Positions 3,294 to 24,027 of a stretch of 27,769 nucleotides of DNA are shown here, piece after piece. The notes under the pieces are model-generated. The model saw only the letters and a program-made list of their open reading frames with translations, did no database searches and was not told where the DNA came from. Each line of letters opens with the position of its first letter. Positions within the stretch are counted from its first letter, which is position 1. Location of the stretch: positions 3,169 to 30,937 of the forward strand of contig JAYENX010000046.1 in the NCBI GenBank assembly GCA_034722435.1, given 5' to 3'. This stretch comes from Nanobdellota archaeon (GTDB taxonomy: Archaea > Nanobdellota > Nanobdellia > Woesearchaeales > JAHWHD01). Both the position numbers and the translations under genes were made by a program.

Positions 3294-4361
3294 ATGGAAG
3301 CGTTAAGAATATTTAAACGGGCATTATTCTTTAAAAGGTATAAACAGTATAATGGAAATGCTGTTGAAATCTGTAAACAAATCGTGAAAAATTGTTGGAA
3401 TGGTAAATTTTTTCAGGCAAGCAGAGGACATTTTAACCAATTTTATACGAGAGATTTCGCATTATGTGTTGAAGGGTTACTGAAATCAGGTTATAAAAAA
3501 GAAGTTAAAAAAACTCTCGAATATGCCCTTCAAATATTTGAAAAAAATAGAAAGGTAACAACAACAATCACTCCAAAAGGTAAGGCAATAGATATTTTTT
3601 CATACACCCCAGAATCAATAGCGATGATAATTAGAAGTTTAAGAATAGTAAATGATAAAAAATTAATTCATAAATACAAGAGACTAATCAATAATGAAGT
3701 TAATAAGGCATTTAAAATTAGTTTTAATAAAAAAACAGGGCTTTTAAGAATAGATAAATATTTTAGTTCTATGAAGGATAATTCTCTTAGAAAAGGTTCG
3801 TGTTATAATAATTGCATGATTGCTATGCTGAGTAATGATTTAAAAAGGTTAAAGTTAAACAATCCTTTCAAAAAGTATAACATAAAAGAAAATATTAGAA
3901 AAAAGTTTTGGAATGGGAAATATTTTTATGACGACATTAGAAAAGGGAAATATGTGGCAGGAGATGCAAACATATTTCCGTTCTGGACAAAGGTGTTTGA
4001 TGATAAAAAAATGTTTCAATCTTGCCTTAATGAAATAAAAAAAGCAGGATTAGATAAACCGTGGCCTTTAAAGTATACAAACTTCAGGACAAACCAAAGG
4101 TTTCCTAACAATATAGTTGTACCTAATTATGAAGGTAATTCTGTCTGGACACAGTTAGGTCTATGTTTTATGAAAACGGTTAAAATGTACAATTACAAAG
4201 ATTTTAAAAAATATTATCAACAGTATAGCGAATTAATAGAAAACAATAAAAATCTAATAGAATTATTCAATCCTGATGGAAGCGTCTATAAAACAACATT
4301 TTACATAGCTGATGAAAGCTTAATTTGGGCAGCGATATTTCTTGAAATAAGTTTGAATTGA
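3294..4361 (+). CDS. (alpha/alpha)6 six-hairpin glycoside hydrolase-like protein (GDE_C/GH63/GH100-like)
   Basis: FYTRDF (W/Y-x-R-D motif), DANIFP, NYEGNSVW (Y..G.vW), terminal IELFNPDG. Substrate cannot be assigned. Confidence 0.65.
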   Translation: MEALRIFKRALFFKRYKQYNGNAVEICKQIVKNCWNGKFFQASRGHFNQFYTRDFALCVEGLLKSGYKKEVKKTLEYALQIFEKNRKVTTTITPKGKAIDIFSYTPESIAMIIRSLRIVNDKKLIHKYKRLINNEVNKAFKISFNKKTGLLRIDKYFSSMKDNSLRKGSCYNNCMIAMLSNDLKRLKLNNPFKKYNIKENIRKKFWNGKYFYDDIRKGKYVAGDANIFPFWTKVFDDKKMFQSCLNEIKKAGLDKPWPLKYTNFRTNQRFPNNIVVPNYEGNSVWTQLGLCFMKTVKMYNYKDFKKYYQQYSELIENNKNLIELFNPDGSVYKTTFYIADESLIWAAIFLEISLN

Positions 4362-14257: not shown

Positions 14258-14830
14258 TTATCTTTCCCTTACCTTAACTTTGTCTCCTTCAAGATGTATA
14301 ATATTTGAAGGGGTACCTTTCTTTTCTCCTTCAAAAAGACAGAATGTCATACCTTTCTGAAGATTTACATCTAGATTATCCAGGTCAGTCATAAATTCTT
14401 GACCAGTAATATTTGCAGAAGTTGTAATGATGGGGTTTCCATAAACTGATACAAACTCAGTTATCCAATGTTTAGGCATCCTTACACCAATAGCATCTAA
14501 ACCAGGAATAACGTTCTTTGCAACAGCATTTTTATTCTTCAATTTCAAAATAAGCGTTACAGGACCTGGAAGTTCTTCAATATATTTTATAGCTTCATCA
14601 GTAACTTCACAATTCTCAATAATCCATTTTTTTGAAGGTACGATGATAGAAAGTGGCATTTTAGGACGATTTTTTAGCTTTCGAACATGGTCAACAGCAT
14701 CTTGTTTTGTAGCGTCACAACCAATACCATAGATAGTGTCAGTAGGATAAATGAATAAAGCACCTTCATCAATAATCTTCATTAGATGCGGTGCTCGCAT
14801 CTGTGCTTCATCAACATTAATGACTTCCAT
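14258..14830 (-). CDS. tsaC: Threonylcarbamoyl-AMP synthase, single-domain YrdC/TsaC type
   Basis: IYPTDTIYGIGC, KNRP..PLS, PGPVTLIL, IGVRMP, PIITTSANITG; no SUA5 C-terminal domain. Confidence 0.9.
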   Translation of the reverse strand: MEVINVDEAQMRAPHLMKIIDEGALFIYPTDTIYGIGCDATKQDAVDHVRKLKNRPKMPLSIIVPSKKWIIENCEVTDEAIKYIEELPGPVTLILKLKNKNAVAKNVIPGLDAIGVRMPKHWITEFVSVYGNPIITTSANITGQEFMTDLDNLDVNLQKGMTFCLFEGEKKGTPSNIIHLEGDKVKVRER

Positions 14831-14903: not shown

Positions 14904-14918
14904 AAAAGAATTTAAAAT
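14904..14918 (+). promoter_or_regulatory. BRE/TATA-like promoter of the acyltransferase gene (probably leaderless)
   Basis: AAAAGAA followed by TTTAAAAT (14911-14918), 24-31 nt upstream of ATG 14942, with no RBS. Confidence 0.45.
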
Positions 14919-14941: not shown

Positions 14942-16150
14942 ATGGTACATATTGATGAAACAAACTTGCTTGCACGATTGAATGATGATTTTAAAGAGGC
15001 AGTTATTGAAAAAGCTCTTAAAAAGTGGGGAAGACGAGCGGGAGACCCCGAAGAAGTAAAAAGAATTATTGAAGGATTTCATATATCTTATGATGCACAA
15101 GTACATACTATGATGTCTGCTACATGGGATAAAGCGTTCCCATTTGTTCTTGGAAAAACAGTAGATGTAACAACTTCTGAGGCAGATGATAAACTTAAAA
15201 AGTTAAGAGGAAAAAAGCCAGTTATTTTTGTTCCAGATCATAGATCTAACTTCGATGCTCCAGTTGTGAATTATTTTCTTAATAAAAAAAATTTATTACC
15301 AGTCAATATTGCAGGCGCCAATTTAAGAGGAGATAAAGCAGACGTATTAGGAAAAGTAAATGTTTTCTTTTATGAAAGACGATTAGAGGGATTACCTAGA
15401 ATATATCCAGTCCTTATGAACATGTATTTAGAAGCTGTTCTTGACAGTAAAAATAATATGTTAATGTTTATAGAAGGGGGAAGGTCTTATACAGGAGTTT
15501 TAAATCAAAAACTTGTTGAAGCTGACGTTAACAGTAGAAAAGGTGTAGGATCTTTAGTAAAACATTTACATTCTGACGATGTACACATCGCACCTTTATC
15601 AATAAACTACGTATGGGTCGGAGAAGATCAAGAGCTAATGAAGTTTTTTAAAGAAGGGGAAGCAATGCCGAAAGTAGATCTTATAGAAAATTGTCTTCAA
15701 CTCCAAAAAAGGTTAGCAGTATATGAAGATTTTAAAGTTTACATGAGAATAGGGACACCTCAACCGTTATCAGAGTACATCCAAAGATCTGAAAAAGCAG
15801 ATGTTAATCGAGGAACTGATGCGTTACAACTTGAACTTGTTAAATCAATTGCAAAAGAGCGAGTTCATTTCTCGCACCAAATTTTATCTAAGGCCGTATT
15901 AGAATCAGGGAGAGTAGGATTGGATGAAACAGTATATGCTGTTGCAACAGATCTCCAAGAAAGAGAGTTTATACTTCGAAACGACGAGTTTTATGACAGT
16001 GAAGGAAATATCGAAGTAGGAAAAGTTTTAAAAGTTGGGAAAAAAAGACTTACCTCCAGAGGAATAATTACTGACGATTTTGATATCCGAGATAGAAGTT
16101 TAATACAGTTCTATGCTAATCAATGCATGTATAATGAAAATAATTCTTAA
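14942..16150 (+). CDS. PlsB/GPAT-DHAPAT family glycerolipid acyltransferase
   Basis: Motif I FVPDHRSNFD (H100-x4-D105), NIAGANL, motif II VFFYERR, motif III FIEGGRSYTG, motif IV APLSINY. The AG.NL and FIEGGRS.TG signatures fit the GPAT/DHAPAT branch better than short PlsC. Confidence 0.85.
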   Translation: MVHIDETNLLARLNDDFKEAVIEKALKKWGRRAGDPEEVKRIIEGFHISYDAQVHTMMSATWDKAFPFVLGKTVDVTTSEADDKLKKLRGKKPVIFVPDHRSNFDAPVVNYFLNKKNLLPVNIAGANLRGDKADVLGKVNVFFYERRLEGLPRIYPVLMNMYLEAVLDSKNNMLMFIEGGRSYTGVLNQKLVEADVNSRKGVGSLVKHLHSDDVHIAPLSINYVWVGEDQELMKFFKEGEAMPKVDLIENCLQLQKRLAVYEDFKVYMRIGTPQPLSEYIQRSEKADVNRGTDALQLELVKSIAKERVHFSHQILSKAVLESGRVGLDETVYAVATDLQEREFILRNDEFYDSEGNIEVGKVLKVGKKRLTSRGIITDDFDIRDRSLIQFYANQCMYNENNS

Positions 16151-16161
16151 GAATTAAAAAA

Positions 16162-17091
16162 TTATATTGTTTGTTTAATTTCTTTAATATCTTTACCTTC
16201 GTAAAGTATTTGGTAAAGAAGTGTGAAGATAGGAGCTTCCATTTGTTCTTTTATCAAGTTATAAATAATCTTTATTTGTTCAGAACCTTCAGGTTTTTGT
16301 GGTTTAAATAGTTCATAGATTTCGTCTAAAGAGTTACCTTCCGCAAGCATCAAACCAACTTTCTGATTTCGTCCGGATAAACAAGTAGTCATTAAATCAC
16401 CTATACCAGCCACGCTTTGAAAGGTTGTCTCTTGAGCATTAAATAAAATACCTACCTCTTGCATCTCTCTTAAAGCATTCGTAATAAACGCAGATTTAGG
16501 ATTTGAAGTATTAGGATAAAGACCGTCTAATATTCCTACGCCAATTGCCACCGGATTTTTTAAAATACCGCACCATTGAACTCCGTACATGTCAGTAGAA
16601 AGATGGACTGTAAAATTATCTGAAGACATAACATTTTTAACCTCGTCATTCAATTCTGATTCAGAAGCTACAACTGCCGCGCTAGGTTTCTGGTTATAAA
16701 TTTCTTTAGCAATGTTTGGACCTGAAAGAACTGCAATATTGTCTTTTGATATGTTGTATTTCTTTTCTAAAATTTCAAAAGAAAGATGGTAAGAATCTTC
16801 AAAATGAACCAACCCTTTTGTTAAAATTACAAACTTCTTATCTTTTAATTCTTCAAAATTTAACTGGTCAAGAGTTGCAATGAAAAATTGAGAATTTAAA
16901 ACAATAAAAATGTATTCAGAATCTTTGACTGATTCAACAATGTCATCAGTAACTTTAATCCCTTCAATAGGAACTATATCTTTATCAAGAATATTTTGGT
17001 AAGCCCAAAGTTTTACATCGTGATTGTTTCTCTTTAAAAGAGATGCAACTGCTGTTCCCCAGGGGCCTGCCCCTATTACTGATGTTTTCAT
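16162..17091 (-). CDS. gpsA: NAD(P)H-dependent sn-glycerol-3-phosphate dehydrogenase
   Basis: Rossmann VIGAGPWGTAVA, LTKG, LSGPNIAKE, GILKNPVAIGVG (catalytic Lys), GIGDLMTTC, GRN..VG. Confidence 0.92.
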   Translation of the reverse strand: MKTSVIGAGPWGTAVASLLKRNNHDVKLWAYQNILDKDIVPIEGIKVTDDIVESVKDSEYIFIVLNSQFFIATLDQLNFEELKDKKFVILTKGLVHFEDSYHLSFEILEKKYNISKDNIAVLSGPNIAKEIYNQKPSAAVVASESELNDEVKNVMSSDNFTVHLSTDMYGVQWCGILKNPVAIGVGILDGLYPNTSNPKSAFITNALREMQEVGILFNAQETTFQSVAGIGDLMTTCLSGRNQKVGLMLAEGNSLDEIYELFKPQKPEGSEQIKIIYNLIKEQMEAPIFTLLYQILYEGKDIKEIKQTI

Positions 17092-18608
17092 GGTTCGTAT
17101 TTTTTGATAACTAAGCTACAATTCTGACCGCCAAAACCTGCTGCATTAACTTGAACAACGCGAGCATCAATAGAGTTATCGCCGTCATAAGTACAAATAT
17201 TAAGGTCATTAATATTCTTATCTATTTCGTCTTTTGTACTTGGAACTAGACAAACAGTACCGTCGTTGATAGCTTTAAGTGCTGTAACGATACCTGCCGG
17301 ACCTGATGCGCCAATCATGTGACCATAATCGCCTTTATTTGATGTGACGCGGACATCTGTGCCGTAAAGGTTTCTGATAGCTACTGCTTCAGCAGGGTCT
17401 CCCAAGGGTGTTGATGTGCCGTGTGCAACCACTAAATCAACATCAGGGATGAGAATTTTAGAACGATATAAAGAATCTCTCATAGCAAGATATAATCCAT
17501 TACCATCAGGGTGAGGTGCTGTTGGATGCGGATAACAATCTTGGGATGCTGCACCACCAGCAACTTCTGCGAGTATAGGTAATTCTTTTTCCTTTGCATA
17601 TTTTAAAGTTGTAAAAAGCATAGTTATAGAACCTTCTGCAAGAACAAAACCGTCTCGTTCTGCAGCAAAAGGTATTGAAGCTTTATCTGGTTTTCTAGTT
17701 GATAATGCAGGCATTTTTGCAAAACCTGCAAGAGAGTTCATTGTCAAAGCAGTTTCTATGCCGCCAGAAAGTGCCCAATCAAGTTCTTCGTAACCTGAAC
17801 GGAGATTAAGAAAAGTTTCATATGAGGCATGTAAACCTGATGCACAGGCAGTAGATAACACATAAGTTTTTCCTCTGATACCTGTAAGACAATTTATTGC
17901 CATTACTGCGCCAACGATTGAGTTTGGAATAAAAGTAGGCTTAGGAGGCATTGCTCTTGAAATTCGGAAAGTATTTTCTTGATATGTTTGTACACCGCCA
18001 ATTCCTGATCCAAGTATAATTGCTGCATTACTACCTTCAGAATTAACTGTAAGATCAAAGCCCGAATCAGTTAGTCCTTTAACAAGTTGAGCAGCTGAAA
18101 GATATCCCATTTTTTGATACCTTTCAAGTTTTCTTAATAACTGAGAAATTGGCCTAGTTGCATCGTTTAACCATTTGCCATCTGTAGTTTGGTGTTTGAA
18201 AGGTATCTCTTTACCAGCAAGTTCATTTACCATCGTTGTTAAATCTTTATCAGATAAAGGTACAAGATTACCTCTTTCACCTTGCTGTACCTGACCACAA
18301 GCTTTAACATTAGGAATTTGTCTGAGAAATTTTTCTCGTCTTTCTCTAATAACACCGTCATATCTTTTCATAATGATGTCCTTAATATTATCAGAAATGT
18401 CAAGTTCGGCCAAAATCTTTTTATCTAACTTTTTTTCGAGAGGGATTTGGTCAAAAAAACCGTCAGGAAGTGCACGTATCCCGCAAGCATTAAAGTCAAG
18501 ATTAGATTCAATCTGTTTTCTTCCAACACCTAAAGGGGTTGCTCCATCCCAAGCCACTATAACAACACGATTTGCGCCGTTCTCTGTAAGAAATTCATTA
18601 TTTGACAT
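17088..18608 (-). CDS. fabF: Beta-ketoacyl synthase (FabF/KAS II-like) with N-terminal insertions
   Basis: RVVI..ATPLG, GSGIGG, STACASGLH (Cys255), PF..ERDGFVLAEG, AHGTSTPLGD (His396), SNK..GHMIGASG (Lys425, His430), GFGGQN. GGGTGG RBS upstream; ATGA overlap with gpsA. Confidence 0.88.
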   Translation of the reverse strand: MSNNEFLTENGANRVVIVAWDGATPLGVGRKQIESNLDFNACGIRALPDGFFDQIPLEKKLDKKILAELDISDNIKDIIMKRYDGVIRERREKFLRQIPNVKACGQVQQGERGNLVPLSDKDLTTMVNELAGKEIPFKHQTTDGKWLNDATRPISQLLRKLERYQKMGYLSAAQLVKGLTDSGFDLTVNSEGSNAAIILGSGIGGVQTYQENTFRISRAMPPKPTFIPNSIVGAVMAINCLTGIRGKTYVLSTACASGLHASYETFLNLRSGYEELDWALSGGIETALTMNSLAGFAKMPALSTRKPDKASIPFAAERDGFVLAEGSITMLFTTLKYAKEKELPILAEVAGGAASQDCYPHPTAPHPDGNGLYLAMRDSLYRSKILIPDVDLVVAHGTSTPLGDPAEAVAIRNLYGTDVRVTSNKGDYGHMIGASGPAGIVTALKAINDGTVCLVPSTKDEIDKNINDLNICTYDGDNSIDARVVQVNAAGFGGQNCSLVIKKYEP

Positions 18609-18679
18609 AAATAACCACCCTTGTTAATTTATAAATATTTAAGTGTTTAAACAAGGACATTATTTATATTGATTTCTAT

Positions 18680-19693
18680 TCACCCAAATATAGTATAGAA
18701 TTTGTTTAGAAATAAATCAGCAACATCTTTGTCATGAATAATGACGAGATTTTCATCGTTACGTTTATTGCCTGAAGCAGTAGGATTATAAGAACCAGTA
18801 ATAACAATTTCTTTGTCAATAATAAATACTTTATGATGTAATTTACCGCGATCATTAGAAATGTCCCAAGTTACATTCATTTCTTTTTCTTGCATTTTAT
18901 GAATTTCGTTGTACTTACTATTTTGCTGTTTTTCAAAAAGTCCAGCAACTTCAATTCCTTCTTGATGTTTTTCAATGATTGTATCGCCAATCGGGTCTGA
19001 TGTAAAAGAGAATGTCATAAAATAAATGGATTCCTCTGCAGCGTTTAAGACGTCAATAACGTGCTCTTCACATTGGTCGTCAGGGCAAAAATAATTTTCT
19101 ATTAGGTTTCCGTTAAAATAGATTTCGGGATAAATCACAGGAGAACCTTTGCCATAAATTCCGTCCCAAAGCTCGTTAAATTCGTCAAGATAATTTTTTG
19201 CAAGATATTCTGAATAAAATATAACAAAATTATTATTGTTTTTAGTATCGCCGTTGATAGTAGGATTAAAAGAACCAGTTGTTATAATCTCTCCATCTAT
19301 TACGCAAAACTTGTTATGAGAGAGAAGAGATTTATCGTCATAGATTATGAAATCATAATCACCTTCAAGTTTGTTATTATTATCAATAACAATCTTGACA
19401 TCTATTCTTTTATTTAAATCTTTAAAAAAATCTATTAACTCGGGAATGTCTAAATCGAATAAAGCGCAATATACATAATCATTAGCCTCACCAAGAGTTT
19501 GTATAAGATGGGAACTACAATTATCTTCGGGACAAAAATATACTTTAGGAGGTATATTTGTTTCTTCAATAATAACAGGTTCATCGGGAATAATTGCGTA
19601 GCCTGTAAATTCTTGTGTGCAAGCAGTTAATGTGATGAGAATAGTTATAGAAAATAAGACGAGTAATAAGGTAAACACAGTCCCCTCCTTCAT
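18680..19693 (-). CDS. Lipoprotein of the phospholipase D superfamily with two HKD motifs
   Basis: Signal peptide ending LTAC (lipobox); HNKFCVID..TGSFN and HHKVFIID..TGSYN; each half starts with FCPxDxC. Confidence 0.85.
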   Translation of the reverse strand: MKEGTVFTLLLVLFSITILITLTACTQEFTGYAIIPDEPVIIEETNIPPKVYFCPEDNCSSHLIQTLGEANDYVYCALFDLDIPELIDFFKDLNKRIDVKIVIDNNNKLEGDYDFIIYDDKSLLSHNKFCVIDGEIITTGSFNPTINGDTKNNNNFVIFYSEYLAKNYLDEFNELWDGIYGKGSPVIYPEIYFNGNLIENYFCPDDQCEEHVIDVLNAAEESIYFMTFSFTSDPIGDTIIEKHQEGIEVAGLFEKQQNSKYNEIHKMQEKEMNVTWDISNDRGKLHHKVFIIDKEIVITGSYNPTASGNKRNDENLVIIHDKDVADLFLNKFYTIFG

Positions 19694-20208
19694 CTAAACA
19701 CCTTTTCAAGTTCTTTGATTGACCTTGAGATACTGAAAAATAATTCAGGGTATTTTTTTTCGAGACTTTTCAATAATTTGTAAGAATCAGGTTTTTTATT
19801 AGGTATGAACTTTAATTTTTTAAATTTAGCATAAAGTTGAGCTTCTTTATCAGTTATAGGTCTTAAAGGAGATAGACCTTTTCGAATTTTCATTTTAAAA
19901 TTCTTTGAAAAAAACCTGTCAATGAAAAAAGCGACCTCGTCATCAAGTGTCCAAAGTGATACTTCTTTAGAAATTTTTGTTTTTCTTTTTACAATCTTAA
20001 AAGGCATGCCCTTAACTATTTTTTTGATTATGAATTCTAATAGAGGTTCTTTAATGAAAAGGATATCGTCTTTTTTAATAGGAGAATTTGTTCGTAGATA
20101 TTTACCAATTCGTCTTTCAATGAGTTTACAATAACAACTTCTACAATAATTTCTCTTTTCATGCTGAAAATTTGACTTCTTCTTACACGATGTACATTTC
20201 ATAATCAT
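19690..20208 (-). CDS. Degenerate TtuA/Ncs6/TtcA-like protein lacking the PP-loop
   Basis: N-terminal CxxC..CxxC zinc ribbon, KYLRTNSPIKKDD, LDDE..FF, PLRPITDKE..LYA, L..LEKKYP...FS match the TtuA outline; no SGGKDS and no central Cys motifs. Confidence 0.6.
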   Translation of the reverse strand: MIMKCTSCKKKSNFQHEKRNYCRSCYCKLIERRIGKYLRTNSPIKKDDILFIKEPLLEFIIKKIVKGMPFKIVKRKTKISKEVSLWTLDDEVAFFIDRFFSKNFKMKIRKGLSPLRPITDKEAQLYAKFKKLKFIPNKKPDSYKLLKSLEKKYPELFFSISRSIKELEKVFR

Positions 20209-20363
20209 AAAAATATCAAAATTATTTATAAAGCTTTACTACCGACAATGACAAAATAACATTTTTAAAGCTTTCTAAATGGCACTACTGCAGAGTAGAA
20301 ATCTTTAAATAGCATAAAGCTACACTGTAAAATTGTGATAAGTTAATCTATCACCTCTTTTTT

Positions 20364-20399
20364 CCCCAAGGAAGATCTCGCAAGAGGTCTTCTAAGGGG
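20364..20399 (+). other. GC-rich hairpin with a GCAA tetraloop in an AT-rich intergenic region
   Basis: CCCC/GGGG, a 2x2 A.A loop, then GGAAGATCTC-GCAA-GAGGTCTTCT (10 bp including two G.U pairs). Confidence 0.6.
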
Positions 20400-20406
20400 T
20401 TTATAA

Positions 20407-22185
20407 TCATTTTTTAGAACGTCTTTTTAATCTACGTTTATGTTTAATATGTTTCAAATAAAATACTCCTGCTGCAAATCCTACAAGCAGTCCAGCTATA
20501 AAAAGTAAAATTAACCTTGTATTAGTACCTAAATGAACTTCAATCTTTACAGGTTTGACTTCTTGAAAATAAAGGTCTAAATTGCTCATCTCTAAAGCGT
20601 ATTCTGAAAATAATAAAGAAGAATATTTTTGAGATTCCTTCAAATCTTTTGAATATTCATAATAACTATATCCCAGTATTGGAAAAATGTCATCAGTTAT
20701 TTGTTTTGCAATGTTTCGTCCAGCAATGTTTAGTTTATTGTCCAAAAGTAGATCCTGGTCTTCACTATCCACGCCTAAAGAGTTAATAAACACATCTGTT
20801 TCAGCTTTTGCTTTACCAGCACGGAATAAACAAAGCACATAATTTTCTGTGTCACGATCTAAATGCGCTTTTTGTAATTCTTTTTTTACAGATGAATGGA
20901 CAAAAGGAATGATAGTATTAATATATTGGAAACGTTCCTCTGCCTCAGAGATTTTATTATCACAAGCTTCTCTAAGAGAATCGCGATTAAATACGAACTT
21001 TTTTCCAGGTTTATTAAAAAAGTCCGACCATGTTCTAGCACTATACAAACGTTCTATTGCGACAGCAAAGTCTTGAGAATATTCTGAATCGTTATCATTC
21101 AATCTTTCATTTGTCATATTAAGAAAATATTTTGACTCAGAGAGACGTTCCTTTACAACCATATAAGCTTGCAAATCAGTGATAGTTTCAATTGGTTTAT
21201 TATCTATTTCAGATTCAAATTCCGCAAGTTCTTCTCGAATTTTTTCAATATCTTGTTTATCAGTATCATTAACAAATTCTATTAAGAGTTCACGATATAT
21301 TACATTAGCCGCATAACAGTAAGATGCTGCAGAATAGTAAAGGTCTTCTACTATGGCAGTTTTTGCTTTGTTAGTAAAATTAAAAGCTTCAATCTCTCTT
21401 TCAATGTAGTCATCTGCCAAAGCTTTTGTAACGCCTTGACTTAAAAGTTCATCCCTAAGAGTGCTTGATTTTTCACAAAGTCGATTCGCTAAACCTTTCA
21501 TAGTTAAGATATAAATTTCAGGAAGTTCAATCTCATAGTTTTCTGGCCAATACATTTTGCCGGCAATCTCGAACATCGCAGAATTAAGATCAGACACTTC
21601 TACAACATCAATACCAAGTTCTGCACCGTATTCAATAAGATTGGTGGTTGTATTATTTTCTTTAAATTTTGAATCGCCCAAAGGAACAAAAACACGTTCA
21701 ATACCTTGATCTGCAGCAGTTTCAATCTTTGATTTAATGCCTCCAACAGATCCTATAAAACCACCTGAATTAATTGTACCAGTTATTGCAATATTTGGAA
21801 CTTTTTTGTTATCAAGAACAGCAATTGTTAAAACTGAAATTGCAGAACCTGCACTAGGGCCTCCAACAATTGCGGATTTAGCTTTAATAGTGTAAAAAAA
21901 ATCATAATCAGAACAATCTTTATCAAGAAAGTCGCAAGCAATAGAATTTGCAAATCTTGTAGATATTAAAGTGTCCAGTTTTGTTAAAGGTTGAGTATCA
22001 ATGAATACTCTGCCTGTACCTTCAGTTATTTTAAGATTAAGATTAGCTGTACTTCCCGTACCCGCCTCAGTAACTGCTAAAAGTTTGATATTACCTTCTC
22101 TAACATAGTTTGAAGCAATTGCTAAAGATGACGTTAAAATAAGTATAGATGTTAATAAAAACATGAATAAGAGGAGTTTTTTCAT
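20407..22185 (-). CDS. Membrane-anchored secreted Lon-like (S16) Ser-Lys protease, archaeal type
   Basis: Signal peptide, G.GRVFI, GGPSAG (catalytic Ser), ITGTINSGGFIGSVGGIKSK (catalytic Lys), long helical domain, C-terminal TM helix and basic tail. Confidence 0.85.
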   Translation of the reverse strand: MKKLLLFMFLLTSILILTSSLAIASNYVREGNIKLLAVTEAGTGSTANLNLKITEGTGRVFIDTQPLTKLDTLISTRFANSIACDFLDKDCSDYDFFYTIKAKSAIVGGPSAGSAISVLTIAVLDNKKVPNIAITGTINSGGFIGSVGGIKSKIETAADQGIERVFVPLGDSKFKENNTTTNLIEYGAELGIDVVEVSDLNSAMFEIAGKMYWPENYEIELPEIYILTMKGLANRLCEKSSTLRDELLSQGVTKALADDYIEREIEAFNFTNKAKTAIVEDLYYSAASYCYAANVIYRELLIEFVNDTDKQDIEKIREELAEFESEIDNKPIETITDLQAYMVVKERLSESKYFLNMTNERLNDNDSEYSQDFAVAIERLYSARTWSDFFNKPGKKFVFNRDSLREACDNKISEAEERFQYINTIIPFVHSSVKKELQKAHLDRDTENYVLCLFRAGKAKAETDVFINSLGVDSEDQDLLLDNKLNIAGRNIAKQITDDIFPILGYSYYEYSKDLKESQKYSSLLFSEYALEMSNLDLYFQEVKPVKIEVHLGTNTRLILLFIAGLLVGFAAGVFYLKHIKHKRRLKRRSKK

Positions 22186-23358: not shown

Positions 23359-24027
23359 ATGTTTAAAAATAAAACAAGAAGAAAAAGCAATAAAAAACAG
23401 AATGAAAAACCTGAGACTTTGCCGGGTAAAATTTGGTATTTTATATGGGAAGATGATAGTGTATGGAGCTGGTTAGTGAATATTTTACTAGCTTTTGTTA
23501 TTATTAAGTTCTTAGTTTATCCCGGTTTAGGACTGGCACTTAGTACGGACCATCCGATAGTTGCAGTTATAAGTCCTAGCATGGAACATGATGGAAACTT
23601 CGATCAGTGGTGGAGTTCGAGCGCGTACTGCAATAACAATTACTGTTCACAAGAACAATGGTATTCAATGTATAATATCAGTAAAGAGGATTTTCGCGAG
23701 TTTCAATTTCGGAACGGGTTCAATATTGGAGATATCATAGTGCTTAAAGGTAAGAAACCAAAAGATATAAAAAAAGGCGATGTGATGGTGTTCGATATCG
23801 GCAGACAAATACCAATAATCCATAGAACAGTGGATACATGGGAAGAGTCAGGCACATACTATTTCACGACAAAGGGGGATCATAACCCTAAAATATTCGA
23901 AGAGATAGGAGAAAGGAAAATAAGCCAAGACCAATTTATAGGTAAAGCGTGGTTTAGAATTCCTTGGCTTGGGTATGTTAAAATTTGGTTTGTCGAAATA
24001 TTAAAATTTGTTGGATTGGTGAGATAA
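23359..24027 (+). CDS. Signal peptidase I, archaeal/ER (Sec11) type
   Basis: TM anchor, VAVISPSMEH (Ser), GDIIV, IIHR (His), TKGDHN, IGKAWFRIPWLGYVK. Confidence 0.9.
   Translation: MFKNKTRRKSNKKQNEKPETLPGKIWYFIWEDDSVWSWLVNILLAFVIIKFLVYPGLGLALSTDHPIVAVISPSMEHDGNFDQWWSSSAYCNNNYCSQEQWYSMYNISKEDFREFQFRNGFNIGDIIVLKGKKPKDIKKGDVMVFDIGRQIPIIHRTVDTWEESGTYYFTTKGDHNPKIFEEIGERKISQDQFIGKAWFRIPWLGYVKIWFVEILKFVGLVR

What the first reader, a model, noticed from the sequence alone, without database searches (positions are those of the whole stretch)
14942..19693. Bacterial/eukaryotic-type G3P fatty-acyl lipid module (GPAT + GpsA + FabF, plus PLD) in an archaeal chromosome
Seen in sequence: four neighbouring lipid-chemistry genes. 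A PlsB/GPAT-family acyltransferase converges (11-bp gap) on a fabF-gpsA pair coupled by an ATGA overlap, with a two-HKD PLD lipoprotein directly upstream of fabF. Flanking genes (cdc48, tsaC, S16 protease, nmd3) are ordinary archaeal genes. Established: archaeal membranes use sn-glycerol-1-phosphate with isoprenoid ethers. GpsA makes sn-G3P, PlsB/GPAT esterifies it with acyl-CoA or acyl-ACP to lysophosphatidic acid, and FabF is the type II fatty-acid elongation ketosynthase. Characterised DPANN archaea mostly lack lipid synthesis and take lipids from hosts. Inference: this is a minimal module to elongate or recycle acyl chains and load them on G3P, allowing ester or hybrid lipids or remodelling of lipids scavenged from a bacterial partner. 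GpsA and acyltransferases are known sporadically in archaea, but physical linkage with a true Cys-His-His ketosynthase is the unusual part. No ACP, FabD, FabG/Z/I or PlsC gene is present in this window.
Basis: partly seen in the sequence, partly recalled or inferred. Interest (0 to 1): 0.92.

Follow-up and report, generated by a model that had tools for sequence, protein, structure and literature searches.

The report
Bacterial-type lipid genes in a Woesearchaeon
A small symbiotic-type archaeon (Woesearchaeota) carries, inside ordinary archaeal genes, a conserved cluster for making bacterial-style glycerol-3-phosphate ester lipids while lacking the detectable archaeal ether-lipid pathway, so it is a concrete test case for archaea that cross the 'lipid divide'.

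Summary
All four genes are at the stated coordinates with intact catalytic motifs: a PlsB/GPAT1-type acyltransferase, GpsA, a Cys-His-His ketosynthase (KAS) and a two-HKD PLD-like lipoprotein. The 11-bp convergent gap and the ATGA overlap are also there.

The block is not a chimera. The GPAT><GpsA<KAS order recurs on an independent public contig. The wider synteny NMD3-LonC-u172-PLD-[KAS]-GpsA-[acyl enzyme]-TsaC-Cdc48 recurs in four more assemblies of this Woesearchaeota clade.

The slot between tsaC and gpsA holds a mini-GPAT, or PlsX (sister species, unpublished genome), or nothing. In other Woesearchaeota, GpsA is paired with a PlsC-like acyltransferase. This supports the reading that G3P is made in order to be acylated.

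The PLD does not belong to the module. It belongs to a LonC-u172-PLD unit conserved across the phylum, with or without GpsA.

Elsewhere the genome has a PlsC-like enzyme, an ACP-like carrier, a FabG-like SDR and a MaoC-SDR fusion. ACC, FabD, AcpS, acyl-CoA synthetase, PlsY, CdsA, GGGPS, UbiA/DGGGPS, CarS and polyprenyl synthase were not found. De novo fatty-acid synthesis is therefore unlikely. The probable role is assembly and tailoring of ester lipids from host acyl chains.

Novelty: new variant of a known kind. The scan's other notes on this locus come from this same window; none come from other DNA.

The parts
14942..16150 (+). Mini PlsB/GPAT1-type glycerol-3-phosphate acyltransferase (402 aa, catalytic core only)
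   Evidence: Pfam PF01553. The best NCBIfam hits are PlsB models, but far below their cut-offs. H100x4D105, R146, FIEGGRS and P218 are present. The nearest solved sequences are PlsB 9vuq and GPAT1 8e4y. An AF2 model (pLDDT 65) matches human GPAT1 best: TM 0.62, E 5e-10. Only one close relative exists among 5.8 billion proteins, at 58% identity and in the same gene order.
16162..17091 (-). GpsA, NAD(P)H-dependent sn-glycerol-3-phosphate dehydrogenase (309 aa)
   Evidence: Both Pfam GpsA domains match at full length. NCBIfam NF000942 scores 214 bits, below its 257 cut-off. About six orthologues at 59-68% identity form a small Woesearchaeota clade; the next hits are 37% identical bacterial GpsA.
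17088..18608 (-). Divergent KAS-II (FabF-like) ketosynthase, 506 aa, with an insertion of about 90 aa near the N-terminus; translationally coupled to gpsA by an ATGA overlap
   Evidence: Pfam N and C domains match. TIGR03150 fabF scores 241 bits against a 494 cut-off. C255, H396, K425, H430, HGTSTP and GFGG are retained. The best database hits are only 38% identical bacterial FabF. It is sister to the G001 KAS on a very long branch.
18680..19693 (-). Two-HKD PLD-superfamily lipoprotein; an adjacent gene that belongs to the LonC-u172-PLD unit, not to the lipid module
   Evidence: PLDc_2 matches twice. The nearest solved structures are Zucchini/MitoPLD 4ggj and Nuc 1byr. It is conserved at 42-73% identity across 58 Woesearchaeota-type loci, usually beside LonC and u172 and without GpsA.
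19690..20208 (-). 172-aa protein of unknown family, coupled to the PLD gene by a 4-nt overlap
   Evidence: No Pfam or NCBIfam hit. Homologues lie between LonC and PLD in many Woesearchaeota loci.
20407..22185 (-). Lon_C (S16) domain protease, 592 aa; a conserved partner of u172 and PLD
   Evidence: Pfam Lon_C; synteny survey.
14258..14830 (-). TsaC/Sua5 family gene; left border of the variable acyl-enzyme slot
   Evidence: Pfam PF01300. It holds the same position in G001, G002 and L107.
14909..14917 (+). TTTAAAATA, a TATA-box-like element about 25-33 nt upstream of the GPAT start codon (inference only)
   Evidence: Read directly from the sequence. The region is AT-rich, so chance is not excluded.

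Best explanation
This is a chromosomal, vertically inherited gene cluster of one Woesearchaeota family. It builds the backbone of bacterial-type ester glycerolipids.

Proposed steps:
1. GpsA reduces DHAP to sn-G3P. Shown by homology only.
2. The convergent mini PlsB/GPAT1-type acyltransferase esterifies sn-1 of G3P from an acyl-thioester. Inferred from motifs, fold and linkage.
3. A PlsC-like acyltransferase elsewhere in the genome (contig C28) completes phosphatidic acid.
4. The KAS is translationally coupled to gpsA and keeps its full decarboxylative condensation machinery. It probably works with the genus-specific ACP-like carrier, a FabG-like SDR and a MaoC-SDR fusion to extend or tailor acyl chains taken from a (probably bacterial) host. 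It is unlikely to make them de novo, because no ACC, FabD, PPTase or acyl-CoA/ACP synthetase is detectable.

The neighbouring PLD-like lipoprotein is not part of this module. It belongs to a separate surface unit (LonC-u172-PLD) conserved across the phylum.
For: - Domain and motif integrity of all three enzymes.
- Conserved linkage. The same GPAT><GpsA<KAS order is on Logan contig SRR7614767. GPAT-like><GpsA<PLD<u172<LonC is on Logan SRR28000233.
- Slot replacement. The sister species G001 has PlsX co-directional with GpsA-KAS exactly where G000 has GPAT. G002 and JGI contig L107 have the slot empty.
- In 6 of 11 GpsA loci from other same-order genomes, a PF01553 acyltransferase of about 220 aa abuts or overlaps gpsA; Pfam confirmed three of them.
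- Genome-wide (G000 is 94.5% complete): a PlsC-like enzyme and an ACP-like protein with a DSL motif were found. The ACP-like protein occurs only in G000 and G001 among 61 same-order genomes, the same two that carry this KAS.
- A FabG-like SDR and a MaoC-SDR fusion are present.
- GGGPS, UbiA, CarS, CdsA and polyprenyl synthase were not found.
- E. coli PlsB is strictly G3P-specific (PMC13400652), which fits the pairing with GpsA.
- Flanks are archaeal, GC is uniform, and there is an archaeal TATA-like element.
Against:
- No route to activated acyl chains was found: AMP-binding synthetase, DegV/Fak, AcpS/Sfp, FabD and the ACC carboxyltransferase were all not found.
- No head-group pathway was found. 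CdsA and CDP-alcohol phosphatidyltransferase were not found. The Tam41-like hit is borderline and looks like a generic nucleotidyltransferase.
- G001 has PlsX but no PlsY.
- All three enzymes score below the NCBIfam equivalog cut-offs.
- The KAS evolves 4-5 times faster than bacterial FabF. Its two orthologues are only 38% identical, against 66-88% for their neighbours, so its function may have shifted.
- G000 also has a G1PDH-like gene, so G1P chemistry is not excluded.
- Coleman et al. 2019 argued that such archaeal homologues probably do not act in membrane synthesis.
Confidence: 0.5

Rival explanations
1. Complete membrane conversion. This Woesearchaeota lineage has no archaeal ether lipids at all, and its membrane is made of bacterial-type G3P ester lipids. 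The lipids are assembled by this cluster plus PlsC-like and still unrecognised head-group enzymes. This is an extension of the best explanation, not a contradiction of it.
For: GGGPS, UbiA-type prenyltransferase, CarS, CdsA and polyprenyl synthase were not found in G000 (94.5% complete) or G001. A full G3P-to-PA route is present. PlsC-GpsA pairs, and in one genome a fatty-acid desaturase, occur in other Woesearchaeota.
Against: Many DPANN lack lipid genes and simply take up host lipids. No head-group or acyl-activation genes were found. A G1PDH-like gene is present. There are no lipid data.
Confidence: 0.2
2. The product is not a membrane lipid. KAS, the (tandem) ACP-like carrier, the MaoC-SDR fusion and the SDR form a small polyketide- or specialised-lipid pathway, and the HX4D acyltransferase loads its product on a different acceptor. 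GpsA then serves glycerol or redox metabolism and is linked only by genomic history.
For: The KAS is strongly accelerated and carries an unusual insertion of about 90 aa. The ACP-like protein is duplicated in tandem in G001, as in PKS or PUFA systems. FabD, ACC and PPTase are missing. All proteins score below the equivalog cut-offs.
Against: GpsA is found beside three different glycerolipid acyl-transfer enzymes in different genomes. PlsX has no known role outside phospholipid synthesis. The GPAT fold matches GPAT1 best. KAS is coupled to gpsA by ATGA. The GPAT-GpsA pair also exists without KAS.
Confidence: 0.15
3. Decaying or functionless remnants of an old bacterial transfer, kept only by chance linkage.
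For: Distribution is patchy: KAS in 4 of 41 same-order genomes, and GPAT in only about 3 known contigs. Branches are long. The slots are empty in G002 and L107.
Against: The frames are open and full length, and every catalytic residue is retained despite only 25-60% identity between orthologues. That pattern indicates purifying selection on the active sites. There is also translational coupling, and GPAT is replaced by PlsX rather than simply lost.
Confidence: 0.1
4. Assembly or binning artefact: a bacterial fragment joined to an archaeal contig.
For: The enzymes are of bacterial type. Earlier notes on this genome report other bacterial-looking genes such as sigma-70 (untested here).
Against: The block lies between Cdc48/TsaC and LonC/NMD3 on one contig. 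The same order occurs in five independent assemblies. GC is uniform. No protein is more than 38% identical to any bacterial sequence.
Confidence: 0.03

Closest known systems
Bacterial PlsB / eukaryotic mitochondrial GPAT1 (GPAT/DHAPAT family)
   Same: It has acyltransferase motifs I-IV (HX4D, the Arg of motif II, FxEGGRS, the Pro of motif IV). The best sequence matches in the PDB are PlsB 9vuq and GPAT1 8e4y. The best fold match is GPAT1 (TM 0.62). It is paired with a G3P-producing GpsA, which fits the strict G3P specificity of PlsB.
   Different: It has 402 aa against about 800 (PlsB) or about 830 (GPAT1): the catalytic core only, without the long N-terminal region and C-terminal domain. It is at most 30% identical to any known GPAT outside its own tiny clade. 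It scores 46-48 bits against NCBIfam PlsB cut-offs of 610-721. It is encoded in an archaeon, and a 2019 survey found no PlsB or PlsX homologue in Archaea (PMC6431249).
Bacterial FabF (KAS II) of type II fatty-acid synthesis
   Same: It has the thiolase-fold N and C domains, the Cys-His-His triad, the Lys, the Thr-x-Thr of HGTSTP and the GFGG gating loop. The best PDB and database hits are all FabF.
   Different: It has an insertion of about 90 aa after the first strand-helix unit, with a shorter version in the sister species. Identity to any FabF is only 34-38%, on a branch 4-5 times longer than normal. The partners FabD, ACC and AcpS were not found (FabH was not searched). It is coupled to gpsA, not to acpP or fabG.
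PlsC/PlsY/GpsA homologues reported in uncultured archaea (Villanueva et al. 2017, cited from memory; Coleman et al. 2019, PMC6431249; Castelle et al. 2021, PMC8204110)
   Same: The general phenomenon is the same: bacterial-type G3P-lipid genes occur patchily in DPANN, MG-II and Asgard bins. Castelle 2021 already notes bacterial G3PDH and 'bacterial fatty acid synthesis' genes in Woesearchaeota.
   Different: Here the first-step enzymes are a PlsB-type GPAT, or PlsX, rather than PlsY. They are physically linked to GpsA and a KAS in a conserved slot, and they come with a genus-specific ACP-like carrier. I found no paper describing this arrangement.
Nuc endonuclease / Zucchini-MitoPLD subgroup of the PLD superfamily (for the neighbouring PLD gene)
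   Same: It has the HKD catalytic motif and PLDc_2 domain. The closest solved sequences are 4ggj, 9lkx and 1byr.
   Different: Two HKD domains are fused in one chain, whereas Nuc and Zucchini are homodimers of one domain. It has a signal peptide and lipobox and two conserved FCPxDxC motifs. It sits in a conserved operon with a Lon_C protease and a 172-aa unknown protein.

Membership tests
GPAT/PlsB (glycerol-3-phosphate 1-O-acyltransferase) | Acyltransferase motif I, HX4D | tested here: met
   H100-R-S-N-F-D105, invariant in 5 aligned relatives.
GPAT/PlsB (glycerol-3-phosphate 1-O-acyltransferase) | Motifs II-IV (Arg of GxxFxxR, F-x-E-G-G-R-S, Pro of motif IV) | tested here: met
   VFFYERR with R146; FIEGGRS at 176-182; IAPLSINY with P218. 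These align to PlsB 9vuq.
GPAT/PlsB (glycerol-3-phosphate 1-O-acyltransferase) | Full-length equivalog score and PlsB architecture (about 800 aa) | tested here: not met
   NCBIfam PlsB models score 46-48 bits against cut-offs of 610-721. Only residues 72-284 align. The protein is 402 aa.
GPAT/PlsB (glycerol-3-phosphate 1-O-acyltransferase) | GPAT fold | tested here: met
   The AF2 model (pLDDT 65, pTM 0.70) hits human GPAT1 8e4y best: E 5e-10, TMq 0.62. Next come plastid GPATs and PlsC. Model confidence is moderate.
GPAT/PlsB (glycerol-3-phosphate 1-O-acyltransferase) | Acylates sn-G3P (not DHAP, G1P or LPA) | not testable with these tools
   Only the context bears on this: convergent adjacency to GpsA in three contigs.
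GpsA (NAD(P)H-dependent G3P dehydrogenase) | N-terminal NAD-binding and C-terminal substrate domains | tested here: met
   PF01210 scores 103 bits and PF07479 136 bits, both near full length. The GAGPWG Rossmann motif is present.
GpsA (NAD(P)H-dependent G3P dehydrogenase) | NCBIfam curated cut-off | tested here: not met
   The best model, NF000942, scores 214 bits against a cut-off of 257.
FabF / KAS II | Cys-His-His triad plus Lys, Thr-x-Thr and the GFGG loop (decarboxylative condensation) | tested here: met
   C255, H396, H430, K425, HGTSTP 396-401 and GFGG 491-494, aligned to solved FabF 4r8e and to bacterial FabFs.
FabF / KAS II | Equivalog score | tested here: not met
   TIGR03150 scores 241 bits against a cut-off of 493.75. 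Only residues 158-502 align.
FabF / KAS II | Works within a type II FAS (ACP, AcpS, FabD, malonyl supply, FabG/Z/I) | tested here: inconclusive
   Found: an ACP-like protein, a FabG-like SDR and a MaoC-SDR fusion. Not found: AcpS, FabD and the ACC carboxyltransferase.
PLD superfamily | HKD motif(s) and PLDc_2 domain | tested here: met
   Two HxK(x)4D motifs; PLDc_2 scores 127 bits over two stretches.
PLD superfamily | Phospholipid (rather than nucleic-acid) substrate | not testable with these tools
   The nearest solved relatives are Zucchini/MitoPLD and Nuc. NCBIfam gives NucT, DrmC and DpdK first, and cardiolipin synthase only at E 1e-4.
PlsX (in sister genome G001, unpublished) | FA_synthesis domain | tested here: met
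   PF02504 scores 184 bits against a cut-off of 29. TIGR00182 scores 185 against a cut-off of 243.
Acyl carrier protein (G000 contig C3) | PP-binding domain with the DSL serine | tested here: met
   PF00550 scores 25.6 bits against a cut-off of 20.8, and the motif LGLDSLEFVEM is present. NCBIfam ACP models score below their cut-offs, 29.9 against 71.

The most novel reading that the evidence does not exclude
A lineage of Woesearchaeota has abandoned archaeal G1P-isoprenoid ether lipids. It builds its membrane from sn-G3P fatty-acyl esters, using a previously unrecognised archaeal mini-PlsB (or PlsX in a sister species), a PlsC-like enzyme, and a private KAS/ACP-like system fed by host acyl chains. 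That would make it a natural archaeon on the bacterial side of the lipid divide.
Probability: 0.2. Interest if true: 0.9.

Novelty: new variant of a known kind. Interest (0 to 1): 0.62.

Why it matters
The 'lipid divide' is a central unsolved problem in early cell evolution and eukaryogenesis. It separates G1P isoprenoid ethers in Archaea from G3P acyl esters in Bacteria and Eukarya.

Surveys have found only scattered GpsA, PlsC and PlsY homologues in archaeal bins. One survey explicitly found no PlsB or PlsX, and doubted that such genes work in membrane synthesis (PMC6431249).

This locus gives a defined, conserved gene set that is open to experiment:
- a G3P dehydrogenase physically and translationally tied to a ketosynthase;
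- a first-step acyltransferase next to it, with non-orthologous replacement (GPAT or PlsX) at the same slot;
- all of this in a genome where the archaeal ether-lipid enzymes are not detectable.

The 402-aa GPAT would also be the smallest PlsB/GPAT1-type enzyme known to me. That makes it attractive for structural and stereospecificity work.

Tried and rejected
- A scan of genome contigs with the GPAT alignment found nothing. The first attempt failed for lack of conserved columns; the second returned no relative. The GPAT clade appears to be absent from the species-representative genomes other than this one.
- Tam41-type CDP-DAG synthase: the Pfam hit is borderline (25 bits against a cut-off of 24). 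The ESM Atlas places the protein among generic NTP_transf_2 nucleotidyltransferases. It is not accepted as a head-group pathway.
- The neighbouring 193-aa 'Dgk1/SEC59-like' gene gave only a weak TIGR00297 hit, E 0.004.
- MaoC Pfam model PF01575 found nothing in G000, and the 493-aa protein has no Pfam hit. Its MaoC+SDR assignment rests only on ESM Atlas feature and structure neighbours, and it was not found in G001.
Left open.
The Phe two residues earlier (NSF to NAA) is the one changed.
- PLD as a lipid-module member: rejected on synteny.
- Complex prediction was not used, because an enzyme-carrier pair is a poor use of that test.

Full report
**1. The observation**

- GPAT-like: 14942-16150(+).
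- GpsA: 16162-17091(-).
- KAS: 17088-18608(-).
- PLD-like: 18680-19693(-).
- GPAT and GpsA converge with 11 bp between their stop codons. KAS and GpsA overlap by ATGA. PLD ends 71 bp upstream of KAS and overlaps the next gene, a 172-aa unknown, by 4 nt.

Pfam and NCBIfam confirm the families. All four proteins score below the NCBIfam equivalog cut-offs, so they are divergent members.

The catalytic motifs are intact.
- GPAT has H100x4D105, R146, FIEGGRS and P218.
- KAS has C255, H396, K425, H430, HGTSTP and GFGG.
- PLD has two HKD motifs behind a lipobox-type signal.

The rest of the window is archaeal housekeeping: Cdc48, TsaC, NMD3, GatE, TruD and a TFE-like protein. GC content is even.

**2. 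Organism and integrity**

Related loci carry record titles 'Candidatus Woesearchaeota archaeon'. The genome, G000, is 1.30 Mb and 94.5% complete.

The block is not a chimera, because the gene order recurs in independent assemblies.

| Assembly | Gene order |
|---|---|
| Logan contig, run SRR7614767 | GPAT (58% id) > < GpsA (68% id) < KAS (461 aa) |
| G001 (same genus, flagged UNPUBLISHED) | NMD3-LonC-u172-PLD-KAS-GpsA-PlsX-TsaC-Cdc48 |
| G002 (same family, flagged UNPUBLISHED) | same order, without KAS or any acyl enzyme |
| JGI contig, sample 3300005077 (L107) | same order, without KAS or any acyl enzyme |
| Logan contig, run SRR28000233 (L030) | distant GPAT-like (25-27% id) > < GpsA < PLD < u172 < LonC, no KAS |

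Read mapping could not be done.

**3. Anatomy: a core with two variable slots**

The core order is LonC-u172-PLD-GpsA-TsaC.
- Slot 1, between tsaC and gpsA, holds a mini-GPAT on the opposite strand (G000 and two Logan contigs), or PlsX on the same strand (G001), or nothing (G002, L107).
- Slot 2, between gpsA and PLD, holds the KAS or nothing.

GPAT and PlsX are unrelated in sequence, but both are first-step enzymes of bacterial G3P acylation. Their alternation at one slot is the strongest contextual evidence that this GpsA makes G3P for acylation.

A third pairing points the same way. Six of 11 GpsA loci from other same-order genomes have a PF01553 acyltransferase of about 220 aa abutting or overlapping gpsA. 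One of these also has a fatty-acid desaturase alongside. GpsA itself is present in 23 of 61 genomes searched in the order.

**4. The PLD is a neighbour, not a member**

I scanned species-representative genomes with an alignment of the PLD and its orthologues. This returned 62 loci, of which 58 are archaeal (Woesearchaeota/Nanoarchaeota-type titles). In these the PLD is 42-73% identical and usually sits directly after LonC and u172. GpsA is adjacent only in the narrow clade described above.

Its nearest solved relatives are Zucchini/MitoPLD and the Nuc endonuclease. NCBIfam puts NucT, DrmC and DpdK ahead of cardiolipin synthase. Its substrate, nucleic acid or phospholipid, is therefore open. 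Its linkage to the lipid genes is best explained by shared ancestry of gene order.

**5. How divergent the enzymes are**

- *GPAT.* Among 5.8 billion clustered proteins it has only one relative. An exhaustive phmmer search of 1.84 billion representatives gives the next hit at E 1e-17 and 30% identity, to 640-900-aa proteins named G3P acyltransferase. One of these sits in an ordinary bacterial context. The protein is a 402-aa catalytic core. An AF2 model (pLDDT 65) hits human GPAT1 best.
- *KAS.* The best hits are 34-38% identical bacterial FabF. In a quick ML tree the G000 and G001 proteins are sisters (SH-aLRT 100). Their stem is 0.98 and their tips about 1.0-1.25, against a median of 0.25 for bacterial FabF. 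They are only 38% identical to each other, whereas their neighbours are 66% (GpsA), 73% (PLD) and 88% (Cdc48) identical. Every catalytic residue is nevertheless kept. This argues for one old acquisition followed by fast evolution under continued selection on the active site. It does not look like a recent transfer or decay.
- *GpsA.* It forms a clade of about six sequences at 59-68% identity; the next hits are 37% identical bacterial GpsA.

**6. The rest of the genome**

Found in G000:

| Gene | Location |
|---|---|
| PlsC-like HX4D acyltransferase, 269 aa | C28 |
| ACP-like protein, 118 aa, with LGLDSLEFVEM, between flavodoxin and UppP | C3 |
| FabG-like SDR | C15 |
| Protein of 493 aa placed by the ESM Atlas among MaoC+SDR fusions | C45 |
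| G1PDH-like protein, 196 bits against a cut-off of 413 | C20 |

The ACP-like protein has an orthologue only in G001 among 61 same-order genomes. There it is a tandem-ACP protein of 355 aa at the same locus.

Not found in G000 (nor in G001) with Pfam models that ring in the control genomes:

| Family |
|---|
| PlsY |
| GGGPS |
| UbiA/DGGGPS |
| CdsA |
| CarS |
| AcpS/Sfp |
| FabD |
| AMP-binding synthetases |
| CDP-alcohol phosphatidyltransferase |
| ACC carboxyltransferase |
| Polyprenyl synthase |
| DegV |

PlsX was not found in G000 but is present in G001. 'Not found' means not found with these models in draft genomes that are 94.5% and 89% complete.

**7. Mechanism**

*Shown:* gene presence, motif integrity, conserved linkage, slot replacement, and the co-occurrence pattern.

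*Inferred:*
- GpsA converts DHAP to sn-G3P.
- The mini-GPAT forms 1-acyl-G3P. The G3P choice fits the strict stereospecificity of PlsB (PMC13400652).
- The PlsC-like enzyme then gives phosphatidic acid.
- The KAS keeps all residues for malonyl decarboxylation and Claisen condensation, so a condensing role is more likely than a purely structural one.
- There is no detectable malonyl supply, malonyl transferase or PPTase. De novo synthesis is therefore unlikely, and I favour extension or tailoring of host-derived acyl chains on the private ACP-like carrier.

*Unexplained:*
- how acyl chains are activated;
- how PA receives a head group;
- what PlsX does in G001 without PlsY.

**8. Comparison with the literature**

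- Coleman et al. 2019 found GpsA, PlsC and PlsY patchily in archaeal bins, including DPANN. They found no archaeal PlsB or PlsX, and doubted a membrane role.
- Castelle et al. 2021 noted bacterial G3PDH and 'bacterial fatty acid synthesis' genes in Woesearchaeota.
- Ding et al. 2025 discuss possible bacterial-like lipid modification by Woesearchaeia.
- Full-text searches for DPANN with PlsX or FabF, and for Woesearchaeota with PlsC, found no description of this cluster.

The kind is therefore known. What appears new:
- the PlsB-type mini-GPAT;
- the GPAT/PlsX alternation;
- the KAS-gpsA coupling;
- the genus-specific ACP-like carrier.

**9. Claims that rest on genomes flagged unpublished**

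- *G001:* PlsX in slot 1; the second KAS orthologue and its tree position; the tandem ACP-like orthologue; absence calls for G001.
- *G002:* the empty-slot synteny. This is independently shown by the public JGI contig L107.
- *Public data only:* the conserved GPAT-GpsA-KAS order and the GPAT-GpsA pair without KAS rest on Logan contigs.

**10. Verdict**

The PLD should be removed from the module, and 'minimal module' replaced by a distributed pathway with gaps. Novelty: new variant of a known kind. Interest 0.62. Confidence in the favoured mechanism 0.5.

Noticed in passing
window 18680-22185 and loci L044-L100: LonC (S16 domain protease), a protein of about 172 aa with no known family, and a two-HKD PLD lipoprotein form a gene trio conserved across Woesearchaeota/Nanoarchaeota MAGs. 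LonC is adjacent in about 35 of 62 loci. The PLD has two conserved FCPxDxC motifs and, in some members, a C-terminal lamin-tail domain. The function is unknown; it may be a surface nuclease or phospholipase unit.
   Followed up: partly
G000 contig C45:5241-6722(-) = L041:5241-6722: A 493-aa protein has no Pfam or NCBIfam hit, but its ESM Atlas neighbours (score 0.94-0.95) are bacterial MaoC-dehydratase + SDR fusions. It was not found in any of 60 relatives. It may supply the dehydratase/reductase partner of the KAS.
   Followed up: partly
G000 contig C20 = L106:991-2337(+): A 448-aa protein has NAD(P)-dependent glycerol-1-phosphate dehydrogenase as its best NCBIfam hit (196 bits, cut-off 413), with an unmatched N-terminal region of about 170 aa. 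G001 and G002 show no match. G000 may therefore make both glycerol-phosphate enantiomers although it lacks GGGPS and DGGGPS.
   Followed up: partly
G001 L110:799-1866(+) versus G000 L007:1429-1785(-): The ACP-like gene between flavodoxin and UppP has a single domain (118 aa) in G000. In the sister species it is a 355-aa protein with at least two DSL-motif carrier domains.
   Followed up: partly
G000 contig C36 = L037:1480-3146(-): Two coupled DUF2229/HGD-D-like genes belong to the 2-hydroxyacyl-CoA dehydratase / PlsA-PlsR-like family. HGD-D is below its cut-off and no activase ATPase was seen. Homologues exist in G001. A plasmalogen-type ester-to-vinyl-ether conversion is conceivable but untested.
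   Followed up: partly
G001 L006:5098-6087(+): A choline/ethanolamine-kinase-like (APH family) gene is inserted next to cdc48 in the sister species but is absent from this window. It could relate to head-group metabolism.
   Followed up: no
L021:169-1362(+) (genome G017): A fatty-acid desaturase gene lies next to a PlsC-like-GpsA pair in another Woesearchaeales genome.
   Followed up: no
G058 L033:3881-5041(-): There is a second PlsX in the order, in a different family. Its context is unrelated (PRPP-synthase-like, Memo-like, glycine-rich protein), and no GpsA or KAS was found in that genome.
   Followed up: partly
window 17088-18608: The C-terminal NSFGFGG of FabF reads NAAGFGG here. The GFGG gating loop is kept; the Phe two residues upstream is the one replaced. 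The sister KAS reads NACAFGG.
   Followed up: yes
window 3294-4361(+) and 23359-24027(+): Two ORFs of 355 and 222 aa have no Pfam match.
   Followed up: no
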